64,000 bases of DNA from Candidatus Methanomethylophilaceae archaeon (GTDB lineage Archaea > Thermoplasmatota > Thermoplasmata > Methanomassiliicoccales > Methanomethylophilaceae). A program made the translations under genes and the position numbers. Below the pieces are notes generated by a model. That model saw nothing but the letters and a program-made list of their open reading frames with translations, was not told the origin of the DNA and ran no database searches. Of this stretch, positions 423 through 44,634 are shown one piece after another. Position 1 is the stretch's first letter; each line of letters starts with the position of its first letter. The DNA is taken from contig JBMNHS010000001.1 of NCBI GenBank assembly GCA_050950505.1, positions 480,001 to 544,000 of the forward strand, in the 5' to 3' direction.

Positions 423-2238
423 CCGTAATTCCCGAATGACGAGCTACAAGCGTGTAGCTACATTTTTCTGAGCCGTTTTTATTTATAAAGAGTATATATA
501 TAGTATATAAGGCGAAGGCTTTATATTGTTGTAGCTCAATATATATATATACATATATATATAAATAATACATGAACATCCGCTACGAAGAGAGAAACGG
601 CAGGAAATACGCTTACAGATGCACTTCCAAAAGGGAGCCAGGCAAGAAGTATCCCGTATCGAAGAAGGAGTATCTCAGAGTGGTCGATCCGGAGACCGGA
701 AACCTGATTCCCAAGAAAGTGGAAACCGATTCGTTAAAATTCAGTCTTCAGGACGGCAAGTTCAGAATGAAGAACTACGGCGGTTCTATGATTGTGGACA
801 CCGTTGCGAAGGAAATACACCTTCGCGAAGATCTAAGGGCATCCTTCGGCGATGCCGCGGACTTCATGCTAGTATTGGCCATGGGTCAGGCCATGGCACC
901 TACCGCGTTCATGGATACCGCTTTGACTTTGGAATCGTCGTACATCCGCGAACTTGTCGGTATCGGCGAGATGGACATCTCGTCCCAACGTATGAGCGAG
1001 ATTACCCGCATATTGGGTGAGGCGTCGGGATGCACGGAGGACTTTTTCGCCCTGCGGGCGAAACGTTACAGCGACGGAACGTTTCTGTACGATATGACAT
1101 CTCAATCCACATATTCCGACGTCGGAGGATTCGCGGAATGGGGTAAGAACCGGGACGGAGAATCGTTGAAGCAACTGAATATCGGACTGGTGACCGGACT
1201 CGAAGGGGATCCGGTGGCGTTCGATCTCTTTCCCGGTTCCGTTTCCGATATAACGACACTGCGCAGATTCGCCGAGGATATGAGAGAACGGGTTCCCGGA
1301 TGCGTATTGGTCATGGACTGAGGATTCGAATCCGCCGGCAACGTGGCCGATCTTACGGAGCACGGCATGGATTTCATCATGCCGTGCACAGTATCGTCCA
1401 AGGCCGTGAAATCCTTGATAACCGATTTCGCAAAAGACGTTTCCAAGCCGGAATACGACCGGATACATGACGGTCATGTGTACAGTGTCTGCGAACGCCG
1501 TCTCGGCGTAGCCGCAGACGGCGATTCCCGGGTGTACGTTACGGATGCCGATCCGGCATTCGAGAACTGCAGATTCAATGTCAGGGCATACATCTGCTAC
1601 GATTCCAAGAAGCGCAGCGACGACGAGCAGAAATTGAAGACAGCGTTGATGGCGAAGATCAAAGAGCTCAACGGAAAGAAGTTCGAGAACCCCGCCAAAT
1701 CGTTCATAAAGAAGACGGGCTGGATGGGCAAGTATCTGGAATACACTATCGACGATGAAGGAAAGATGACCGTGGGTTACAAGAACAACGCCATGACGTT
1801 CTTCAGAAACCGTGCAGGAATGTTCGTAATGCTTACACCGACCGTCGATTGGGAGACGGTGATGACCGCGTATGACGCGAGGAACAATGTTGAGATGGCG
1901 TTCGATATATTCAAGAACGAATTGGACGGGAAACGCGGACGCACCGGGGATCCGGTGCGTGCAAGGGGACGTCTTTTAATCAAATTCTTGGCGCTGATGA
2001 TTCGTGTAAGAATGCAGATTGCGGTCTCCGGGAGCAAGGTAAAGAACCTGACTGTGGAGAATGCGCTGATGTCCGCCGCGACGTACGAGATCGTGAAGGA
2101 CCGTGGCGTGAATATCAGATCCGAGAAGACAAAACGCGTGAGGGAGATATTCGAGGCGTTCGGGGTCGAAGACCCCGAGCGATTCGAGCTTGTCTCTCAG
2201 AAGTCATGAAACATGTAGCTCAATTCCGGGGATTTCGG
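423..2238 (+). mobile_element. IS1634-family insertion sequence (1816 bp)
   Basis: Imperfect terminal inverted repeats CCGTAATTCCCGAATGACGAGCTACA (423-448) and TGTAGCTCAATTCCGGGGATTTCGG (2214-2238); direct repeat ACTAAAA at 416-422 and 2239-2245; GC higher than flanks; DDE transposase inside. Confidence 0.88.
572..2209 (+). pseudogene. IS1634-family DDE transposase with in-frame nonsense codon
   Basis: ORFs 572-1321 and 1343-2209 share one frame; motifs YDMTS, VMD*GF (expected DRGF, CGA>TGA at 1319-1321) and RNNVEMAF. Confidence 0.85.
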
Positions 2239-2500
2239 ACTAAAACATCGAAACTTAACGGAAACTTCCGTTTGCAAAAGCACATATTTCAGCGAAAGTC
2301 AGAGCGATGACAGTCATTAGTTCAAACTTGGATTTTATTATTGTTTCTTGCAGAATTGCAAGTGTGAATTTAGGATCAAGTGTCAAAATATTAGTTTTCA
2401 AGTGATGAGGTGACTCGGTTTAATATAATCATGGACGACAACAAACTCATATTTTTCCTCATAATCAATTGATATCTTATTCAGTGTATAATCTATATTC

Positions 2501-4264
2501 TTACTCTAATTTTAGATATTTCATCCAGAAGTCTACATTTGTAATCTTGTCCTTATTTTTTCTATATTCTGATTTTACAATATCGTACTCTTTCCATACT
2601 GATATTAAAACTGTAAACGTCCGTTTCATTTCTTTAAGAGCACACCTTATATTCTTCGAAGTAACAAAGGCCCTTTTGTTACTGTAATCATAGTTTAGAA
2701 CCTTATGTGCACGGTTGAATTTATGATTGGGCGGGTTATAAACATTCACTGTAACATTTTTATTGGTAGGTAATATTAAATTTATAAACCAGGGGTATGG
2801 GCGAACTTTATTTTGTAAGTCTGCACCTAAATCAGAATATGAAAATTCCATTTTTAAGTTTGAAACTGGTTCTAATTTATAACCCAAAGCCATTATATTT
2901 TTGTGCAGCATCTCCCCATCTTCAGACTTTAACCAGACATATCCCCTAAGAAAGTCCTCTACGCCTTTTGTTAGCAGCTTTGCATTCTTGTATCGGTACC
3001 GAGTCATTTCTGAAGACCATTGTTTAAGATAGTCTCTTATCAGTTGTTTTTTTGTATATCCAATGTTATGAAGAGAATTCAAAATCAGCTTATTTCTTAA
3101 TATGTAATAATATGTGGATGAAGAATATTTATTTTCAAAAGGCTCATGCCAAACACATATTCCATTCAGTAGAATTAAATTACCTATATTGCGCAATCCG
3201 AATTCAATATCGTCTCCTCTGAAAAATATAGGTATCGGCAATCCATTTTCGATTATCTTTTTGAGAGGGATGGCACAGTACCACCAAGCGTTATAATCAA
3301 CAGATTCTTCAATTTCATTAAAAAGACAAGCCTCACAAGACGTCAGGTTCAAACCATTTTTTAATGAATGTACGCTCGCTCCATTCCATTTTGCGCCAGA
3401 TTCTATTTGGATATTTTGTTCATCTAAACTAAGCATGGCGCCTCCTATGAACGCATCCTGGTATTCTCTTTTTAGAATTGAAAGTATTGCGTATGTACGA
3501 TATATGGATTCAACATCGAATAAAATGTCGTCATCCATCAGTATGACATGAGTAGTCTTGTTATCACACTGAGCCTCGATCATACATCTGGCAAAACCCC
3601 CCGCACCACCGGTATTCTTATTCTTTATCAATTTAATGTAAGCAGGGTCAAATTCAGAGTCTAGCGTATTCCCATTGTCTGAGATGTATATCCTCATCTT
3701 ATCTTTTGGGAGTGGCGTATTCCCATTATCTAATACGTTTACGATCCGATTCACATTCTCAATGACGTATCGTTCTCTCTTGTAGGTGCATATACATAGT
3801 CCAAGATCAACGTGATTTATTTTACTATGGCATATTTCAGATGAATAATAGCCATCCAATATCTGAGAATAATCTTCGAGCGATATAATTTCAAAAGTTA
3901 ATATTCCAGACGATTTATCAGGATACTCAATTGTAATTTCGTCCTCAGTAACGGATCCAAAAATTATTTCATCCAATACGACGGTCTTGCATTTTTTATT
4001 AATGAGACGCTCTTTATGAATTAATCTTATGCTGAATTTACCTTTTAGGCGGAGAGTTAAGGATACGTTAGTTATTTCTGTATATTTTTTCCATTTATCG
4101 ATGTAGAAGCCATTAAAATACGTATCAAATAGTGCTACTTCCTCTGAATTTAAAGTTATGCGGCTATCATTAAAAGAGTAACACTTATCATCATTTATTC
4201 TGAAATATAAATCAAATATTGAACACACATTGGTTTTTGGAAATATTATATTCTGAAGAATCAC
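2501..4264 (-). CDS. GT2 glycosyltransferase, galactofuranosyltransferase GlfT2-like
   Basis: FDTYFNGF N-domain, ICTYKR, NTGGAGGF, MDDD, AWWYC, RGDDIEF, WHEPF, YYILRN. Confidence 0.8.
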   Translation of the reverse strand: MILQNIIFPKTNVCSIFDLYFRINDDKCYSFNDSRITLNSEEVALFDTYFNGFYIDKWKKYTEITNVSLTLRLKGKFSIRLIHKERLINKKCKTVVLDEIIFGSVTEDEITIEYPDKSSGILTFEIISLEDYSQILDGYYSSEICHSKINHVDLGLCICTYKRERYVIENVNRIVNVLDNGNTPLPKDKMRIYISDNGNTLDSEFDPAYIKLIKNKNTGGAGGFARCMIEAQCDNKTTHVILMDDDILFDVESIYRTYAILSILKREYQDAFIGGAMLSLDEQNIQIESGAKWNGASVHSLKNGLNLTSCEACLFNEIEESVDYNAWWYCAIPLKKIIENGLPIPIFFRGDDIEFGLRNIGNLILLNGICVWHEPFENKYSSSTYYYILRNKLILNSLHNIGYTKKQLIRDYLKQWSSEMTRYRYKNAKLLTKGVEDFLRGYVWLKSEDGEMLHKNIMALGYKLEPVSNLKMEFSYSDLGADLQNKVRPYPWFINLILPTNKNVTVNVYNPPNHKFNRAHKVLNYDYSNKRAFVTSKNIRCALKEMKRTFTVLISVWKEYDIVKSEYRKNKDKITNVDFWMKYLKLE

Positions 4265-40072: not shown

Positions 40073-41734
40073 ATGAGTAACAACATAGAAGGGTTCAAAC
40101 CCAACAAACTGACGCTAATAACGTTGCTCTTTTCTTCAATGATCATTCTTATGGGTGCTGCCGCGGTCGCACCCGCATTAAAACCGATAAGCGACGCTTT
40201 CCCGGGAGCCTCCATGGTAACCGTTTCCCTTGTGGTGACGTTACCCGCCGCAGCCGTGGCCGTCACAGGCATGGCCATGGGATATCTTGCCGACCGGTTC
40301 GGAAAGGTTAAGGTGTTCATCGCATCGGTTGCAATCTTCACCGTTGCAGGTCTGTCGGGATATTTTCTCAATACGCTGGAATCCGTTCTTGTAGGACGTT
40401 TCATTTTGGGTGTAGGCATAGCCGGCATATCCACAACCACCACCGCACTGACCGCCGAATACTATTCGGGCGCAATCAGGGCAAAAGTGATCAGTTATCA
40501 ATCGGCCGCCATGGGTATCGGAGTACTGTTTCTGGAAACTATCGGAGGATCTTTGGCGGATGTGGGATGGCAGGAACCGTTCCTGGTATATCTGATCGGT
40601 CTTCCCATTCTTTTGCTGGCACTGTTGTCAATGAGGGAACCTGAGAAGGAAATATACAATGACGGGATGGTATCACAGCCGGATATACCCAACAAACGTC
40701 TGAAGGTGGCGCTCTGTTACGTTATGATATTTGCGGCAATGTTCCTGATGTTCGTTCTTCCCACGAATTTACCGTATCATCTGGCGGATCTGGGATTCAG
40801 TCTGACGATATGCGGTCTTATGCTCGGTGTGCTGGGTATGACACAGGCGGCTTTCAGTCTGATCTATTCCCGTTCCTCGAATAAACTGAATGACAAAGGC
40901 GCATATTCCGTGGCTTTATCACTGATAGGCGCGGCCTATGTCGCATTGTATTCGTCGAGTGTTATTGCGATAACGTTCTCGATGATATTGGTTGGCGTGG
41001 GTATGGGACTGATAACCATGACGGTACTCGGCAGTCTGTCGCATTATTCACAAGCGGGAGGTTCCGGAAAAATAATGGGAGGGTATTCGGTGGCTCTCAA
41101 CCTGGGTACCTTTTCGTCATCTCTTGTCATAACACCGTTTATTGAAGCAACGGGATCGTATTTTGACACCTTCTTGTATATAGGATTGTTCGTGTTGGCT
41201 ATATGCGTTGTATCCGTACTGTATGCGGTATATACCACAAGGAAAACAAAAGCAGAGAGGAAAATCATTGCCGAGACCAAGAGGCCTTCGGACTTCAAAT
41301 CTCTGTATGAAAGCATACTGATTGCGACCGATGGCAGCGAAACGAGTAAGTTGGCCGTGCGCAACGGGTTGGACATAGCCAGGAACAATTCCTCCAAAGT
41401 TACAGCGCTGTACGTATTCGATGCCGAATATTATGCATCCGTCACGGGCAGCGTAACCGCAGCGGATTACATAAGAGAACTTGGAAACGAAGCGTCCAAG
41501 AACGCGTTGGATTATGTAAAAGAAATGGCCGCCGAGAGAGGGATGGAAGCGGAATTCAAAGTGGTCATCGGGCATCCTGCTGAGTCCATAGTGGACGAGT
41601 CTGCCGAACACAGTCTGCTGGTATGCGGTTCCATGGGACGCACAAGCGTACCCAGGGTACTTTTGGGAAGTGTGGCGGAAAAAGTGGCAAGGATGGCTTA
41701 CTGCCCCGTGCTAATCTGTCGCGGCAACCATTGA
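40073..41734 (+). CDS. MFS transporter fused to C-terminal universal stress protein domain
   Basis: GYLADRFGK, GRFILGVG, about 12 TM, then ILIATDGS, GHPAESI, GSMGR...LLGSVAEKVAR...PVL. Confidence 0.88.
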   Translation: MSNNIEGFKPNKLTLITLLFSSMIILMGAAAVAPALKPISDAFPGASMVTVSLVVTLPAAAVAVTGMAMGYLADRFGKVKVFIASVAIFTVAGLSGYFLNTLESVLVGRFILGVGIAGISTTTTALTAEYYSGAIRAKVISYQSAAMGIGVLFLETIGGSLADVGWQEPFLVYLIGLPILLLALLSMREPEKEIYNDGMVSQPDIPNKRLKVALCYVMIFAAMFLMFVLPTNLPYHLADLGFSLTICGLMLGVLGMTQAAFSLIYSRSSNKLNDKGAYSVALSLIGAAYVALYSSSVIAITFSMILVGVGMGLITMTVLGSLSHYSQAGGSGKIMGGYSVALNLGTFSSSLVITPFIEATGSYFDTFLYIGLFVLAICVVSVLYAVYTTRKTKAERKIIAETKRPSDFKSLYESILIATDGSETSKLAVRNGLDIARNNSSKVTALYVFDAEYYASVTGSVTAADYIRELGNEASKNALDYVKEMAAERGMEAEFKVVIGHPAESIVDESAEHSLLVCGSMGRTSVPRVLLGSVAEKVARMAYCPVLICRGNH

Positions 41735-41743
41735 AATCCTTTA

Positions 41744-41776
41744 ACGCGGGCCGGAAGGTCCGCGTGTTTCTTTTTC
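41744..41776 (+). terminator. Hairpin plus T-rich tract after the MFS-USP gene
   Basis: ACGCGGGCC-GGAA-GGTCCGCGT followed by GTTTCTTTTT. Confidence 0.6.
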
Positions 41777-42029
41777 GCAATTTGTATCAGAATACCATTT
41801 TCATTTATCCGGGCATATGGCATCGGCATCGTGTGTCACTTCCGGAAATAAATTCACACGTCATAACGGAGAAAAAAGGCCGTCGAGATAAAAAGTGCGA
41901 TACGCGTACCAAAATGCAATAAAAAGTATGCGTATCGCTGAAGTGTAAGAACCGACTCTGTATAAAAAAAGCATTGTGATTCACGTTGTCGCATAGAATG
42001 AAAAACCCGTGTATTGCAACGTATTGCGG

Positions 42030-42368
42030 TCAGAAACCATTCTTTTTCATCGTTTCCAGATATACTACGCCCCAGGATTCCATGGCGAAAATAATCGGCC
42101 GCATCGATTCTCCCAATTCACTCAGCCTGTATTCCACTCTTGGCGGCACTTCCGGATAAGCCGTTCTTACGACAATGCCGTCCGCTTCCATAGAGCGGAG
42201 ATTTTCGGTCAATACCTTTTGACTGATTCCCGGTATGGTTTTGTTCAGTTCGCCGAAACGCTGAGTTCCGGCCAATAAATTTCTCATTATGAGCAATTTC
42301 CATTTATTGCCTATCAGTCCCACCGTTGTTGCGACAGGACAGACCGGAAGTTCTTCTTTTGTCAACAT
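42030..42368 (-). CDS. HxlR/DUF24-family winged-helix regulator
   Basis: CPV.TT..LIGNKWK, RFGEL, ISQKVLT..LR.ME, VPPRVEY.L. Confidence 0.92.
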   Translation of the reverse strand: MLTKEELPVCPVATTVGLIGNKWKLLIMRNLLAGTQRFGELNKTIPGISQKVLTENLRSMEADGIVVRTAYPEVPPRVEYRLSELGESMRPIIFAMESWGVVYLETMKKNGF

Positions 42369-42545
42369 TCGTGTCACTTCCGATCGGCCGCACCGATCAT
42401 TCAGACGACGGCATCACTTCATAATAAGCCGTAGGTTACATTCAGGAAACCATCTAACGGAAAGGTTTCTGTCCGTTTTATCACAATTCGAAACGTTCGG
42501 ATGTTATGCGACATCCGATTGTTGCACAGAAAAAGGAGACAGAAA

Positions 42546-42731
42546 ATGAGCAAATTTGAAAAAATAAACGGATGGAACGAAAAATCATCATACGTCGCAG
42601 TGAGAGACGCACAAAGTTACCTGAACGGGACTTATGAAGGAGCCGCATGTTCCTGCGGTTCCTCATGCGGATCGGGCGACAAACCCAAAAGAAGCTCCTG
42701 CGGTTCTTCCTGCGGATCCGGAGGCAAATGA
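42546..42731 (+). CDS. Putative RiPP precursor, 61 aa, SCGS-repeat (ACGX-like) peptide
   Basis: AGGAG upstream; MSKFEKINGWNEK...AACSCGSSCGSGDKPKRSSCGSSCGSGGK; directly upstream of radical SAM/SPASM gene. Confidence 0.8.
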   Translation: MSKFEKINGWNEKSSYVAVRDAQSYLNGTYEGAACSCGSSCGSGDKPKRSSCGSSCGSGGK

Positions 42732-42738
42732 ACAAACA

Positions 42739-42756
42739 GCCCCGGGATGCCGGGGC
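42739..42756 (+). promoter_or_regulatory. GC hairpin between precursor and maturase genes
   Basis: GCCCCGG-GATG-CCGGGGC. Confidence 0.5.
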
Positions 42757-42781
42757 ATCTTCCGCATCGAACGGCGAACAG

Positions 42782-43810
42782 ATGAAAGATATGTTTGCAT
42801 TTCAAATTCATATAACCGAGGAATGCGACCAGCGTTGCGAACATTGTTATATCTTCGCTGAAAACAATGACGTCGAAATACGACGCATGAGTTTGGACCA
42901 GATGACGGCCGTTGTGAATAACTGCATGGAAACGTGCAGAAAACTGGACCGCGAACCTTACTTCTATATCACCGGCGGAGATCCCATTCTGCACAAAGAC
43001 TTCTGGAAGTTTCTTGAAATATTATCTGAAAACCGCATTCGGTTTTCGATTATGGGAAACCCGTTCCATCTTAACGGGGAAGTATGCAAAAGATTGAGTA
43101 ATCTCGGTTGCGAAAAATACCAATTGTCGATTGACGGTATGCGCGACACCCATGATGCCATTCGAAAAAAAGGATCTTTCGATGCCACCCTGGAAAAAAT
43201 AAAAGACATAAGATCGGCGGGCATGGACTGTGCGATAATGACCACGGTGTCCGGACTGAACGCGGATGAAATGCCCGATATAATTGACACCGTGGTGGAA
43301 AACCATGTGGACATATTCGCATTTTCCAGATACTGCCCCACCGGGAATGAAAAAAGCGTCGGACTCACCCCGGAGGAATACCGGGAGGTTCTTGACGCAT
43401 GCTGGAAACGGTTTGAGGTTCACAAAAACAGCGGGACCTGGTTCAATCTGAAGGACCATCTCTGGAAGCTTTATCTTTTTGAGAGGGGGATGTTCAGCAT
43501 TCCGGACGGTCTTGAAGAGGATGTAATCTACGACGGATGCAACTGCGGCAATAACCATTTGACAATACTTCCTGACGGAAGCGTCTATGCGTGCAGAAGG
43601 ATGGAAAGTCCCGTGGGAAACGCGTTGGACGAGTCTCTTTATGATATATTCACCGGCAGTAAAATGGACTGTTACCGCAGGTACAACGATTTCAAAAAAT
43701 GTTCAAAATGTGAGTTGCTGAGATTTTGCAGAGGATGTCCCGCTGTTGCATGCGGCGGGACCGGGGATTTTTACTCGGCAGATCCCCAATGTTGGAAGGT
43801 GTTACCTTGA
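42782..43810 (+). CDS. Radical SAM/SPASM peptide maturase, ACGX-system-like (alternative start 42728)
   Basis: FQIHITEECDQRCEHCY (CxxxCxxC), TGGDP, SIDG; SPASM region CNCG..G.VYACRR..CSKC....CRGCPA..DPQC. Confidence 0.88.
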   Translation: MKDMFAFQIHITEECDQRCEHCYIFAENNDVEIRRMSLDQMTAVVNNCMETCRKLDREPYFYITGGDPILHKDFWKFLEILSENRIRFSIMGNPFHLNGEVCKRLSNLGCEKYQLSIDGMRDTHDAIRKKGSFDATLEKIKDIRSAGMDCAIMTTVSGLNADEMPDIIDTVVENHVDIFAFSRYCPTGNEKSVGLTPEEYREVLDACWKRFEVHKNSGTWFNLKDHLWKLYLFERGMFSIPDGLEEDVIYDGCNCGNNHLTILPDGSVYACRRMESPVGNALDESLYDIFTGSKMDCYRRYNDFKKCSKCELLRFCRGCPAVACGGTGDFYSADPQCWKVLP

Positions 43811-44397
43811 ATGATACGTTAAAATCCATATTCGACAGAAGAAGCATAAGACGGTTCACGGAACAACAGGTGGGCGATGAAAATCTGAATACCATTGTGG
43901 AAGCGGGATTGTATGCCCCGAATGCAGGCAACAGACAGACAACCGTGGTGTTGATTTCCAAGAACAGGGAAATAAACGAAGAACTCGGAAAGATAAATAA
44001 AAAAGCTTTCAAAGGCCGCATATCAACGGCGGACAGGTTTATCTCCAAGGACAATCCCGGCATAGCCGACAATCCCGCCCTCGAAAGCGGATTATACGGC
44101 GCCCCCGTTGTGATAACATTGTTCGGGCCCAAGGATTTCCTTTATTCGGTTCCGGACTGCTGGGTCATGGCAGAGAATATGGCCTTGGCGGCTTATTCCC
44201 TGGGAATAGGATCATGTCTCATCGCCCGTGCGGAAGACACCTTCGACACTGATGCCGGTCAGAAGATTCAGAACGAGGCCGGCATACCTTCCGATTACAT
44301 TGCGAGGGTGCACATAGCACTGGGTTATCCGGAAAACGGGTTCCCGAAAGCAAAAGAAAGGAAAAGAAAAGACGAACGGATTCTGGTCATCGATTGA
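43807..44397 (+). CDS. Nitroreductase-family flavoprotein
   Basis: RRSIRRF, APNAGNRQ, YGAP, ENMALAAYSLGIGSC, LGYP; TTG start overlaps the rSAM stop. Confidence 0.88.
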   Translation: MNDTLKSIFDRRSIRRFTEQQVGDENLNTIVEAGLYAPNAGNRQTTVVLISKNREINEELGKINKKAFKGRISTADRFISKDNPGIADNPALESGLYGAPVVITLFGPKDFLYSVPDCWVMAENMALAAYSLGIGSCLIARAEDTFDTDAGQKIQNEAGIPSDYIARVHIALGYPENGFPKAKERKRKDERILVID

Positions 44398-44560
44398 TTC
44401 CAATCAACGTTCATTTTTCCGGCATATTTCAGTGAATGCTTTGTCATTCTCGCGCATCTGAATGCAAATCAGCGGTGCTGACCACTTTTTTAATGTAACA
44501 AATCGTCTTATGGATGCGGTGTGCGGAGTGACCTTATCCAATATTTTCAAAAATCATCAG

Positions 44561-44634
44561 CGGGCCTGAAGGGATTCGAACCCTTGGCCGTTCGATTAAG
44601 AGTCGAACGCTCTACCTAGCTGAGCTACAGGCCC
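44561..44634 (-). tRNA. tRNA-Lys (CTT)
   Basis: GGGCCTGTAGCTCAGCTAGGTAGAGCG TTCGA CT-CTT-AA TCGAA CGGCC AAGGGTTCGAATCCCTT CAGGCCCG cloverleaf. Confidence 0.96.

What the first reader, a model, noticed from the sequence alone, without database searches (positions are those of the whole stretch)
42030..44397. Archaeal SCGS-repeat RiPP cluster: precursor, radical SAM/SPASM maturase, nitroreductase and HxlR regulator
Seen: a 61-aa peptide with an N-terminal leader-like part containing WN and two SCGSSCGSG cores 45 nt apart (42651, 42696), followed by a CxxxCxxC/SPASM enzyme and an overlapping nitroreductase, with a divergent HxlR gene. Established, from memory: the FQxHITxECDQRCxHCY start and xCGx repeats match the bacterial ACGX radical SAM system, whose product I do not know to be characterised. 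Inference: a Ser-substituted variant acquired by a methanogen, possibly making a thioether-crosslinked peptide. The N-terminal Cys in HxlR and the flavoprotein hint at a redox or electrophile stress link.
Basis: partly seen in the sequence, partly recalled or inferred. Interest (0 to 1): 0.82.

Follow-up and report, generated by a model that had tools for sequence, protein, structure and literature searches.

The report
ACGX radical-SAM peptide cassette in methanogen
A small four-gene cassette acquired by a gut-type methanogen encodes a cysteine-rich repeat peptide, the iron-sulfur enzyme that most likely modifies it, a flavin reductase and a thiol-sensing regulator; it belongs to a widespread family whose product is still unknown.

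Summary
The maturase is a full member of NCBIfam TIGR04340 (rSAM_ACGX): 572.8 bits against a cut-off of 400. The 61-aa peptide is an ACGX-type precursor. It scores below the curated TIGR04341 cut-off (17.9 vs 28), but a profile built from 74 other precursors picks it out unambiguously (E 8e-14).

The cluster is ordinary as a member of this family. I surveyed 82 loci from bacteria and archaea:
- 74 have a same-strand xCGx-repeat peptide upstream.
- 50 of 71 loci with enough flank have an adjacent HxlR regulator (46 of them divergent). Its N-terminal Cys-Pro is invariant in 53 of 53.
- 64 of 73 have an NAD(P)H-type reductase directly downstream: MDR quinone reductase, nitroreductase or PNPOx-ferredoxin.
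- 16 continue into a SirTM-like/Macro pair.

In this genus all four genes form one 2.8-kb indel next to tRNA-Lys. Three congeners show the empty site. The genes are closer to bacterial cassettes than to any archaeal relative.

The all-Ser (SCGS) core is unique to this lineage among the precursors examined.

My best reading is a horizontally acquired, HxlR-controlled cytoplasmic peptide matured on its Cys-Gly motifs and working with the reductase in thiol or electrophile stress. The chemistry (thioether or SbtM-like thiooxazole) is untested.

The parts
42030..42377 (-). HxlR/DUF24-family winged-helix regulator (115 aa) with a single Cys (Cys13-Pro14), transcribed divergently from the peptide operon
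   Evidence: Pfam HxlR PF01638 scores 116.2 bits. The best NCBIfam hit is redox TF RrpB at 117 bits, below its cut-off of 175. Cys13-Pro14 is invariant in 53 of 53 cassette-adjacent homologues. The protein is 70-77% identical to bacterial cassette HxlRs, but at most 59% to non-cassette HxlRs of its own order and at most 39% within its own genus.
42421..42482 (.). Candidate control region between the divergent genes. It holds ATAATAAG (42421-42428), GTAGGTTAC (42431-42439), the inverted repeat GGAAACC-N12-GGTTTC (42445-42469) and the TATA-like GTTTTATC (42475-42482).
   Evidence: This is the best-conserved block of the intergenic region between the window and G015. A similar element, TAATAAAAA(A/G)GTGCGTACTT, lies 55-94 nt upstream of the precursor start in 12 of 15 bacterial cassettes with closely related HxlRs. 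Binding by HxlR is inferred, not shown.
42546..42731 (+). ACGX-type precursor peptide, 61 aa. The leader carries NGW...RDAQSYL. The core has two SCGSSCGSG units (from 42651 and 42696) separated by DKPKRS, plus an extra Cys35.
   Evidence: Sequence. TIGR04341 scores 17.9 bits at E 0.0035, below the cut-off of 28, but the match spans 4-64 of 65 profile positions. A custom profile scores 47.5 bits at E 8e-14. The core is under purifying selection, with 6 synonymous and 0 non-synonymous differences.
42782..43810 (+). Radical SAM/SPASM maturase of the ACGX system (about 342 aa; an alternative upstream start at 42728 overlaps the precursor stop). There is no room for an N-terminal RRE domain, because CxxxCxxC starts 15 residues (C15) after Met.
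   Evidence: TIGR04340 scores 572.8 bits at E 2.4e-172, against a cut-off of 400. Pfam Radical_SAM and SPASM both match. Eight SPASM-region Cys (C271, C273, C289, C325, C328, C334, C337, C355 in P0004 numbering) are invariant in 12 of 12 aligned members.
43807..44397 (+). FMN nitroreductase-family protein (196 aa). Its TTG start overlaps the maturase stop by 4 nt.
   Evidence: Pfam Nitroreductase PF00881 scores 80.9 bits. It is 36-55% identical to the gene in the same position in 20 other loci. The nearest solved structures are generic NAD(P)H nitroreductases.
41722..44555 (.). Extent of the indel that carries all four genes, relative to congeners
   Evidence: In G002, G012 and G013 the MFS-Usp gene and the tRNA-Lys region are about 200-230 bp apart. 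In the window they are 2.83 kb apart. No flanking direct repeats and no GC anomaly were found.
44560..44634 (-). tRNA-Lys(CUU) at the right border of the cassette, with its 3' end facing the cassette
   Evidence: ARAGORN and Rfam RF00005 at 73.7 bits.

Best explanation
This is a complete, intact copy of the ACGX radical SAM/SPASM system, carried on a 2.8-kb four-gene cassette that a Methanomassiliicoccales methanogen lineage obtained by horizontal transfer from a pool of mainly bacterial cassettes.

Shown here:
- The enzyme is a TIGR04340 member.
- The peptide is a conserved, selected ACGX-type precursor.
- The order regulator <-> peptide-maturase-reductase is the standard architecture of the system across phyla.
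- The whole unit is an indel in this genus.

Inferred mechanism:
1. The one-Cys HxlR/DUF24 regulator senses thiol-reactive compounds through Cys13. Candidates are electrophiles, disulfide stress or reactive sulfur species. The regulator controls the divergent operon through the conserved intergenic element.
2. The maturase recognises the leader (NGW...AQSYL) without an RRE domain. It uses 5'-deoxyadenosyl radical chemistry and two auxiliary clusters to oxidise the Cys of each xCGx motif.
3. The product stays in the cytoplasm as a full-length modified peptide, because no protease or exporter travels with the system.
4. The product works with the translationally coupled NAD(P)H reductase as a sulfur-based redox or electrophile-handling module. 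In the window that reductase is a nitroreductase. In other cassettes it is an MDR quinone reductase or a PNPOx-ferredoxin.

My odds:
- member of the ACGX system, 0.97
- horizontally acquired cassette that includes HxlR, 0.85
- peptide modified on the CG-motif Cys, 0.8
- stress-regulated cytoplasmic role together with the reductase, 0.55
- chemistry: thiooxazole-type heterocycle about 0.3, thioether cross-link about 0.3, something else about 0.4
For: Family.
- TIGR04340 scores 572.8 bits against a cut-off of 400.
- 3160 homologues have E<=1e-30 among 3936 candidates. Bacterial members are 63-69% identical.

Peptide.
- A same-strand upstream xCGx-repeat ORF is present in 74 of 82 loci and in 75 of 80 metagenome loci.
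- 72 of 76 precursors hit TIGR04341 at E<=1.
- The custom profile finds only the window ORF among 1137 segments.
- The core shows 6 synonymous and 0 non-synonymous differences.
- In G034 the peptide, the maturase and the downstream flavoprotein are all decayed together.

Regulator.
- HxlR is adjacent in 50 of 71 loci with enough upstream flank, and divergent in 46 of them.
- Cys-Pro is invariant in 53 of 53.
- The window HxlR is 70-77% identical to bacterial cassette HxlRs, against at most 59% in its own order.
- A similar element sits in the intergenic region of archaeal and bacterial cassettes.
- Passages of PMC3351151 describe characterised DUF24/HxlR regulators that sense diamide, quinones or hypochlorite through the N-terminal Cys. 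They control nitroreductases (HypR-HypO, YodB-YodC) or a quinone oxidoreductase (QorR-QorA).

Reductase.
- Of 63 downstream ORFs scanned, 28 are MDR/ADH-type, 21 nitroreductase, 3 PNPOx+Fer4 and 1 FMN_red.
- With a wider search window, 64 of 73 loci have at least one of these.
- The reductase start overlaps the maturase stop.

No export machinery. All-against-all clustering of 674 ORFs from the 82 loci found only these families recurring in 8 or more loci: rSAM, HxlR, MDR, nitroreductase, sirtuin-like, PNPOx-Fd, Macro and an ECF sigma factor, plus one artefact cluster of 19 ORFs antisense to the precursor repeats.

Parallel system.
- 16 of 82 loci extend into a sirtuin-like gene with invariant QG (15 of 15) and/or a Macro gene.
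- In the known SirTM operon this pair accompanies a sulfur-bearing carrier (lipoyl-GcvH-L), its installer and flavin oxidoreductases. That operon is tied to oxidative stress (PMC4518038 passages).

Transfer.
- The family is over cut-off in 16 of 251 genomes of the order.
- Three congeners show the empty site.
- The AU test rejects one clade for the five Methanomassiliicoccales copies (p 0.0019).
Against: - No experiment or expression data: no RNA run holding the stretch was listed.
- The curated precursor model scores below its cut-off.
- 21 of 71 loci lack an adjacent HxlR, and most cassettes of the sister genus g20 show none within the 1.5-kb flank. The regulator is therefore frequent but not obligatory.
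- 9 of 73 loci showed no reductase by my criteria. Two of those nine are nitroreductases with over-long ORFs.
- HxlR-reductase pairs are common on their own, so the link to the peptide could be co-regulation rather than shared chemistry.
- Radical SAM enzymes are oxygen-labile, which fits poorly with a response to oxygen-derived oxidants. It fits better with anoxic electrophile or sulfur stress.
- The HMM lead to SbtM (164 bits, cut-off 350) is only about 50 bits above heme-type SPASM enzymes such as AhbD (113 bits).
- The nearest solved structures by sequence are thioether synthases: SkfB at E 2.7e-16 and CteB at E 4.5e-9.
- The tree is a quick tree. The window lineage sits on a long stem in an unresolved polytomy. 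The AU group was named after the tree was seen.
- The cassette has no GC anomaly, integrase or att repeats. Loss in the congeners, rather than gain in this lineage, is not formally excluded.
Confidence: 0.6

Rival explanations
1. This is a classical secreted RiPP, either a bacteriocin or a signalling peptide. In this reading the maturase forms sactionine or ranthionine thioether rings between the Cys and nearby Ala/Ser/Gly/Asp residues. HxlR and the nitroreductase are neighbours without a role in the product.
For: The nearest solved structures by sequence are the thioether synthases SkfB and CteB. PapB-type and SCIFF-type families are among the weaker NCBIfam hits. Two of 76 precursors also touch the SCIFF model. 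The second Cys of many units is followed by x3-Asp/Glu. From memory, that resembles the Cys-x3-Asp motif of PapB substrates.
Against: No protease, ABC exporter or immunity gene recurs in the 82 loci. The maturase is unusually conserved between domains, at 58-69% identity. The regulator and a reductase are retained across phyla. The leader has no hydrophobic signal sequence or Gly-Gly cleavage motif that I could see. PapB (65 bits) and SkfB (71 bits) score far below SbtM (164 bits).
Confidence: 0.13
2. This is an anaerobic counterpart of methanobactin or bufferin. In this reading the maturase converts the Cys of each xCGx motif into a 5-thiooxazole or related heterocycle. Each double unit (CGSxCG) then chelates Cu(I) or another soft metal inside the cell.
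For: SbtM, the thio(seleno)oxazole-forming radical SAM enzyme, is the best-scoring characterised family (164 bits; its chemistry is described in PMC11002830 passages). Per the abstracts listed (PMC11626156, PMC12452194), thiooxazole peptides made by oxygen-dependent MNIO enzymes bind copper and protect against copper stress. ACGX hosts are strict anaerobes, where an oxygen-independent route would be needed (titles). Paired Cys units are the commonest terminal unit.
Against: The regulator belongs to a thiol-redox and electrophile-sensing family, not a metal-sensor family. No metal transporter or chaperone recurs. The conserved partner is an NAD(P)H reductase, for which a metal buffer has no evident need. 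SbtM membership itself fails: the score is below cut-off and the roughly 190-residue N-terminal part is absent.
Confidence: 0.14
3. The reductase is a tailoring enzyme rather than a redox partner. In this reading the maturase creates an unsaturated or oxidised intermediate on the peptide. The MDR enzyme, nitroreductase or PNPOx enzyme then reduces it to a stable final structure, for example a D-residue or a reduced cross-link.
For: The reductase gene is translationally coupled to the maturase. Three unrelated hydride-transfer families occupy the same slot, which looks like non-orthologous replacement of a single step. From memory, lanthipeptide pathways use either a zinc-MDR or a flavin reductase to reduce dehydroalanine.
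Against: Some loci carry two different reductases (11 of 73) and 9 of 73 showed none. The MDR proteins resemble PIG3-type quinone reductases. The nitroreductase resembles generic NAD(P)H nitroreductases, not RiPP dehydrogenases.
Confidence: 0.1
4. The radical SAM enzyme acts on a non-peptide substrate, as AhbD or NirJ do, and the small ORF is an unrelated Cys-rich protein or is not translated.
For: Heme-type SPASM families appear among the weaker hits (AhbD 113 bits, NirJ 84-94 bits).
Against: The ORF is adjacent on the same strand in 74 of 82 and 75 of 80 loci. The peptide core is under purifying selection. Peptide and enzyme decayed together in G034. The repeat number varies while the motif is kept: 2 units in the window and 3 in L108.
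Confidence: 0.03

Closest known systems
ACGX radical SAM/SPASM system (NCBIfam TIGR04340 maturase with TIGR04341 ACGX-repeat peptide)
   Same: The maturase scores far above the curated cut-off. The peptide has the leader plus tandem xCGx units and sits directly upstream on the same strand. Gene order and neighbours match the bulk of the 82 surveyed loci.
   Different: All four CG motifs are flanked by Ser on both sides, and there is one extra Cys. None of the 74 other precursors is all-Ser. The curated peptide model scores below its cut-off. The host is a Methanomassiliicoccales archaeon.
SbtM/SbtA thio(seleno)oxazole system (TIGR04082)
   Same: It is the best-scoring characterised relative of the maturase. 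Both are SPASM enzymes acting on Cys (or Sec) of a small peptide.
   Different: The score is 164 bits against a cut-off of 350. The first 194 or so positions of the SbtM model have no counterpart here. There is no selenocysteine codon in the precursor. The chemistry has not been tested.
Thioether-forming SPASM maturases (SkfB, CteB, PapB; sactipeptides and ranthipeptides)
   Same: Radical SAM plus SPASM fold with a Cys-rich small precursor. These are the closest solved structures by sequence.
   Different: HMM scores are low (65-71 bits). No RRE domain is present. No transporter or protease is linked.
MarR/DUF24 (HxlR-family) thiol-switch regulons: HypR-HypO, YodB-YodC/AzoR1, QorR-QorA
   Same: The regulator has the reactive N-terminal Cys and sits next to a nitroreductase or a quinone oxidoreductase (PMC3351151 passages).
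   Different: Here a precursor peptide and a radical SAM maturase lie between the regulator and the reductase. The window protein has one Cys only, and Ala where HypR has Glu17.
SirTM-Macro extended operon with GcvH-L, LplA2 and OYE/LLM oxidoreductases
   Same: Functional analogy only. Both hold a small sulfur-bearing carrier, the enzyme that installs its reactive group, flavin or NAD(P)H oxidoreductases, and (in 16 of 82 ACGX loci) a QG-type sirtuin with a Macro domain protein.
   Different: The carrier and installer are unrelated: an ACGX peptide with a radical SAM enzyme against GcvH-L with a lipoate ligase. The window cassette itself has no sirtuin or Macro gene.

Membership tests
ACGX system, maturase TIGR04340 | Whole-protein score at or above the curated cut-off (400 bits) | tested here: met
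   572.8 bits at E 2.4e-172, covering 2-339 of 341 profile positions. The genome-level search gives 572.7 bits.
ACGX system, maturase TIGR04340 | Radical SAM CxxxCxxC motif plus a SPASM domain with the Cys ligands for two auxiliary clusters | tested here: met
   The motif reads CDQRCEHC. Pfam Radical_SAM scores 78.3 bits and SPASM 38.4 bits. C271, C273, C289, C325, C328, C334, C337 and C355 are invariant in 12 of 12 members.
ACGX system, precursor TIGR04341 | Peptide scores at or above the curated cut-off (28 bits) | tested here: not met
   17.9 bits at E 0.0035, although it is the best hit and spans 4-64 of 65 positions.
ACGX system, precursor TIGR04341 | Short peptide directly upstream of the maturase on the same strand, with a conserved leader and tandem xCGx units | tested here: met
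   The peptide has four xCGx motifs and the leader NGW...AQSYL, as in L017, L023, L029 and L034. A profile of 74 other precursors scores it 47.5 bits at E 8e-14, the only significant hit among 1137 window segments.
RiPP (ribosomally made, post-translationally modified peptide) | The peptide is actually modified by the neighbouring enzyme | not testable with these tools
   Only genomic association is available.
SbtM thio(seleno)oxazole maturase TIGR04082 | Score at or above the cut-off (350 bits) and full-length match including the N-terminal part | tested here: not met
   164.4 bits. Only model positions 195-515 of 516 are matched.
Sactipeptide/ranthipeptide maturases | Membership of a curated thioether-maturase family (PapB, SkfB, SCIFF-type) | tested here: not met
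   PapB scores 64.6 bits (cut-off 340) and SkfB 71.2 bits (cut-off 300).
HxlR / MarR-DUF24 thiol-switch regulators | HxlR winged-helix domain with the conserved reactive Cys at the start of helix 1 | tested here: met
   PF01638 scores 116.2 bits. Cys13-Pro14 is invariant in 53 of 53 cassette homologues. The position of the reactive Cys in the family is taken from PMC3351151 passages.
HxlR / MarR-DUF24 thiol-switch regulators | DNA binding switched by oxidation or alkylation of that Cys | not testable with these tools
   There is only a conserved candidate operator.
Nitroreductase superfamily (PF00881) | Pfam score above the gathering threshold | tested here: met
   80.9 bits against 23.5. No curated NCBIfam equivalog is reached (best 46.6 bits against 223).
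Class M sirtuin (SirTM)/Macro pair (in related loci, not in the window) | QG in place of the sirtuin HG motif, and genetic linkage to a Macro-domain gene | tested here: met
   QG is invariant in 15 of 15 sirtuin-like ORFs. A Macro gene is adjacent in 7 of those 15 loci, and one further locus has Macro only. The Macro domain scores E 1.3e-35. The criterion comes from PMC4518038 passages. No reference SirTM sequence was aligned.

The most novel reading that the evidence does not exclude
ACGX peptides are not secreted natural products. They are a ribosomally made, radical-SAM-matured, sulfur-based redox or electrophile-scavenging carrier of strict anaerobes, an analogue of lipoyl-GcvH-L or of low-molecular-weight thiols.

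In this reading:
- A thiol-switch HxlR regulator induces the peptide.
- An interchangeable NAD(P)H reductase (MDR, nitroreductase or PNPOx-ferredoxin) recycles or assists it.
- In some lineages reversible ADP-ribosylation by SirTM/Macro gates it.

The methanogen cassette would be the minimal four-gene form of this defence module, spread by horizontal transfer among gut and sediment anaerobes of both domains.
Probability: 0.3. Interest if true: 0.8.

Novelty: new member of a known kind. Interest (0 to 1): 0.5.

Why it matters
The ACGX family is large. The maturase is unusually conserved and the system is common in gut, rumen and sediment anaerobes. Even so, I found no paper on its product or role.

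The window itself adds only an archaeal, all-Ser member. The survey it prompted gives the family a testable context:
- a thiol-sensing regulator
- a slot always filled by some NAD(P)H reductase
- in part of the family, a SirTM/Macro pair
- no export genes

If the stress-module reading is right, this would be a new kind of peptide-borne redox chemistry in anaerobes, including the methanogens of animal guts. The compact four-gene archaeal cassette would be a convenient minimal system to reconstitute.

Tried and rejected
Literature. 'ACGX' anywhere in the text gave 86 papers (20 listed), none about this system. These combinations gave 0 papers each: ACGX with radical SAM, TIGR04340, TIGR04341 or ACGX-repeat; ACGX with SPASM; HxlR with SPASM. 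Thiooxazole with radical SAM gave 11 papers (8 listed), none on ACGX. The original SbtM paper (PMC8935624) is not held, so the SbtA core motif could not be compared. Supplementary files were not opened. Those of PMC4518038 may list other extended SirTM operons.

Expression. No RNA holder was listed for window:42030-44397.

Complex prediction. A nitroreductase dimer with FMN and the precursor as partner gave 'no support' (score 0.00, mark 0.32). This is no evidence either way.

Mobility signatures.
- No flanking direct repeats and no GC shift around the cassette.
- No integrase or att repeat in the L108 context.
- The near-palindrome ATCGGCCGCACCGAT at 42383-42397 (family D2) is not conserved in G015. 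I dropped it as an operator candidate.

Outgroup. The weaker Methanomassiliicoccales hits used to root the tree (L005-L009) are AhbD/NirJ-like, not SbtM-like. The root is therefore distant, and the direction of transfer is inferred mainly from distribution.

Loci without a precursor by my script (8 of 82).
- L002 has one on the other strand.
- L021 is N-masked.
- L032, L036, L040 and L090 are cut by contig ends. Partial peptides are visible for L032, L040 and L090.
- L014 has a leader-bearing ORF with no CG repeats and a possible frameshift.
- L050 has none.

Rows dropped.
- L001 (the window itself), L004 (broken copy) and L005-L012 (weak hits) were left out of the synteny counts.
- Synteny denominators (71 and 73) include only loci with at least about 1.3 kb of upstream or 1.05 kb of downstream flank.

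Not done. No structure prediction or fold search was run. I judged that they would not discriminate between the candidate chemistries.

Full report
**Observation.** The region holds four genes as described.
- An HxlR-family gene lies at 42030-42377 on the minus strand.
- A 61-aa ORF lies at 42546-42731, behind an AAGGAGA ribosome-binding site.
- A radical SAM gene reads MKDMFAFQIHITEECDQRCEHCY from 42782 and ends at 43810.
- A nitroreductase gene has its TTG start (43807) overlapping the maturase stop. It ends at 44397.

The two SCGSSCGSG cores begin at 42651 and 42696. They form a 45-nt tandem direct repeat.

**Family assignment.** Against NCBIfam the enzyme scores 572.8 bits on TIGR04340 (rSAM_ACGX, cut-off 400). 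The next families are:
- SbtM, the thio(seleno)oxazole maturase (TIGR04082): 164 bits, matching only model positions 195-515
- an uncharacterised SPASM family: 116 bits
- AhbD: 113 bits

Pfam finds Radical_SAM and SPASM in the enzyme, Nitroreductase in the downstream protein and HxlR in the regulator.

The peptide hits TIGR04341 (ACGX-repeat peptide) over nearly the whole model, but at 17.9 bits it is under the cut-off of 28. I built a profile from 74 precursors of other loci. It finds this ORF as the only significant match among 1137 segments of the window (47.5 bits, E 8e-14).

Against the congener G015 the peptide keeps its length. It shows 11 synonymous and 7 non-synonymous codon changes, and none of the non-synonymous changes falls in the core. 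The ORF is therefore a real, selected, ACGX-type precursor.

**The system elsewhere.** The maturase family is large and very conserved. There are 3160 clusters at E<=1e-30 among 3936 candidates. Bacterial members from Bacillota, Bacteroidota, Spirochaetota and others are 63-69% identical to the archaeal protein.

It returned 80 loci. These include Methanobrevibacter, Methanosarcinaceae, Methanomethylophilaceae and Methanomassiliicoccus records. I added two loci from relatives, giving 82 loci in all. Counts:
- 74 of 82 have an xCGx-repeat ORF just upstream on the same strand. Most of the remaining loci are cut by contig ends or masked.
- 72 of 76 precursors hit TIGR04341 at E<=1.
- Of 63 ORFs directly downstream of the maturase, 28 are MDR/zinc-ADH-type. 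A representative of these is nearest to PIG3-type quinone reductases.
- A further 21 of the 63 are nitroreductases (window included), 3 are PNPOx+4Fe-4S proteins and 1 is an FMN reductase.
- With a wider search window, 64 of 73 loci with enough flank have at least one of these three reductase types.
- An HxlR homologue lies next to the precursor in 50 of 71 loci with enough flank, and it is divergent in 46 of them.
- Clustering of all 674 larger ORFs found no recurrent protease or transporter.
- 15 loci hold a sirtuin-like gene and 8 hold a Macro-domain gene. These sit in line after the reductase, in 16 loci in all.
- The sirtuin-like proteins have an invariant QG where sirtuins have HG (15 of 15). 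This is the signature of ADP-ribosylating class M sirtuins, according to passages of PMC4518038.

**The window variant.** In 74 other precursors the residue before Cys is Ala in 331 of 387 motifs, Ser in 38 and Gly in 12. Twenty precursors have at least one SCG, and none is all-Ser. Only the window's lineage carries SCGSSCGSG units:
- G015
- a 100%-identical metagenome contig, L107
- L108 (87% maturase identity), which has three units instead of two

The leader (KINGW...RDAQSYL) is of the long type, also seen in Sulfurospirillum, Planctomycetota, Bacillota and Marinilabiliales loci. The Ser variant is thus an extreme of tolerated variation, not a different system.

**Origin.** The genome encodes McrA. 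By kinship codes it shares its order with a record titled Methanomassiliicoccus. The link is that L073 is identical to L003 of G038.

In that order the family is over cut-off in 16 of 251 genomes, and two more copies are pseudogenes. Thirteen of the 16 lie in one genus, g20. The cassettes of g20 have a different leader and an MDR reductase.

In three near-complete congeners (G002, G012, G013) the MFS-Usp gene and the tRNA-Lys region are about 200-230 bp apart. In the window they are 2.83 kb apart. The indel therefore carries all four genes, HxlR included.

The window HxlR is 70-77% identical to HxlRs of bacterial cassettes. It is at most 59% identical to any non-cassette HxlR of its order and at most 39% within its genus. 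The nitroreductase is up to 56% identical to bacterial cassette nitroreductases.

In a quick maximum-likelihood tree of 87 maturases, the window and G015 sit on a long stem in an unresolved polytomy. They are apart from the other Methanomassiliicoccales copies, which group with Clostridium and Prevotella sequences. An AU test rejects a single clade for the five Methanomassiliicoccales rows (p 0.0019). I named that group after seeing the tree.

There is no GC anomaly, integrase or att repeat. In L108 the same cassette lies beside tRNA-Arg in a different neighbourhood.

I read this as transfer of the whole cassette, probably more than once into the order. The direction is inferred from distribution only.

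**Regulation.** Cys13-Pro14 of the regulator is invariant in 53 of 53 cassette-adjacent homologues, and the window protein has no other Cys.

Passages of PMC3351151 describe characterised members of this family:
- They sense diamide, quinones or hypochlorite through the N-terminal Cys at the start of helix 1.
- HypR controls the nitroreductase HypO.
- YodB controls the nitroreductase YodC and AzoR1.
- QorR controls the quinone oxidoreductase QorA.

These are the same two enzyme classes that fill the ACGX reductase slot.

The best-conserved stretch of the intergenic region between the window and G015 holds ATAATAAG-N2-GTAGGTTAC, an inverted repeat GGAAACC-N12-GGTTTC and a TATA-like box. Twelve of 15 bacterial cassettes with closely related HxlRs carry TAATAAAAA(A/G)GTGCGTACTT at a comparable distance from the precursor. 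Binding to these elements is inferred.

**How it most likely works.**

Shown here: membership, conservation of the peptide, the four-gene architecture and its status as an indel.

Inferred:
- The regulator responds to thiol-reactive stress and controls the operon.
- The maturase has no room for an RRE domain, so it recognises the leader itself. It oxidises the Cys of the invariant Cys-Gly motifs.
- The product remains cytoplasmic and unprocessed.
- The product acts together with the reductase.

The parallel with the SirTM operon supports a carrier-type role over an antibiotic-type role. That operon holds a sulfur-bearing carrier, its installer, flavin oxidoreductases and a SirTM/Macro pair, and it is linked to oxidative stress.

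The chemistry is open. The HMM ranking points to SbtM-like thiooxazole formation. That reaction removes four hydrogens from Cys (PMC11002830 passages). The nearest solved structures are thioether synthases.

Because radical SAM enzymes are oxygen-sensitive, I favour anoxic electrophile or sulfur stress over oxygen stress as the trigger.

**Verdict.** This is a regular, intact member of a known but uncharacterised family, in an archaeal host, with a lineage-specific all-Ser core. The novelty lies less in the window than in the family-wide context it exposes.

**Limits.**
- No expression data were available.
- The complex prediction gave no verdict.
- Supplements and the original SbtM paper could not be read.
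- The tree is a quick tree with a distant AhbD-like outgroup.

Noticed in passing
L013, L018, L019, L023, L033, L037, L044, L052, L057, L058, L063, L068, L071, L083, L086, L092 (downstream of the reductase gene; e.g. L044:5679-7269, L019:5031-6679): In 16 of 82 ACGX loci the operon continues into a sirtuin-like gene (15 loci) and/or a Macro-domain gene (8 loci). The sirtuin-like proteins have an invariant QG in place of HG and no Pfam hit. This is a SirTM/Macro-type pair attached to a radical SAM peptide system instead of GcvH-L/LplA2.
   Followed up: partly
window 44560-44634; L108:4911-4987: The cassette abuts the 3' side of tRNA-Lys(CUU) in the window. In L108 (87% maturase identity) the same cassette abuts tRNA-Arg(UCG) in a different gene neighbourhood. 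No integrase or att repeat was found at either site.
   Followed up: partly
L004 (G034:C11) 1286-3052; G238:C2:12432-13436: These are decaying ACGX cassettes in other Methanomassiliicoccales. In G034 the precursor is cut to one mutated unit, the maturase is split by a stop and the PNPOx-ferredoxin gene is broken. In G238 the maturase has 7 in-frame stops.
   Followed up: partly
L024, L028, L030, L032, L053 (Methanobrevibacter); L109: Methanobrevibacter-type precursors have 5-9 single units of the form [TS]ACGSD[IV][NT] and end in RF. They are followed by an MDR reductase, then a PNPOx-ferredoxin and one or two HxlR genes downstream. This is a distinct archaeal sub-architecture.
   Followed up: no
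L003:1225-1419 and L073:3121-3315: The Methanomassiliicoccus-type precursor has a run of four Cys (EECCCCGEE) in its leader, ahead of two canonical AACGSACGAG units.
   Followed up: no
L014:3688-3920: The Methanosarcinaceae locus has an ORF with a typical leader (HDW...RSAQNYI). Its core lacks CG repeats and seems to continue in another frame (…CACSFSCASGY). It is either a frameshifted precursor or an unusual variant.
   Followed up: no
window 40073-41734: This gene encodes an MFS transporter fused to a C-terminal universal stress protein domain (MFS_1 and Usp). It is conserved in congeners that lack the cassette, so it is not part of the cassette. It appears to be missing at this site in G015.
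   Followed up: partly
L005-L009 (G027, G033, G032, G036, G025): Other Methanomassiliicoccales families carry 480-516-aa radical SAM/SPASM proteins nearest to AhbD/NirJ2. L005 scores 325 bits on AhbD, below the cut-off of 500. They have an N-terminal extension of about 140 residues of unknown function.
   Followed up: no
G020:C1:841973-842251: An HxlR paralogue in a same-family genome is matched across an in-frame TAG. In this order that could be a pyrrolysine codon, a read-through or a pseudogene.
   Followed up: no
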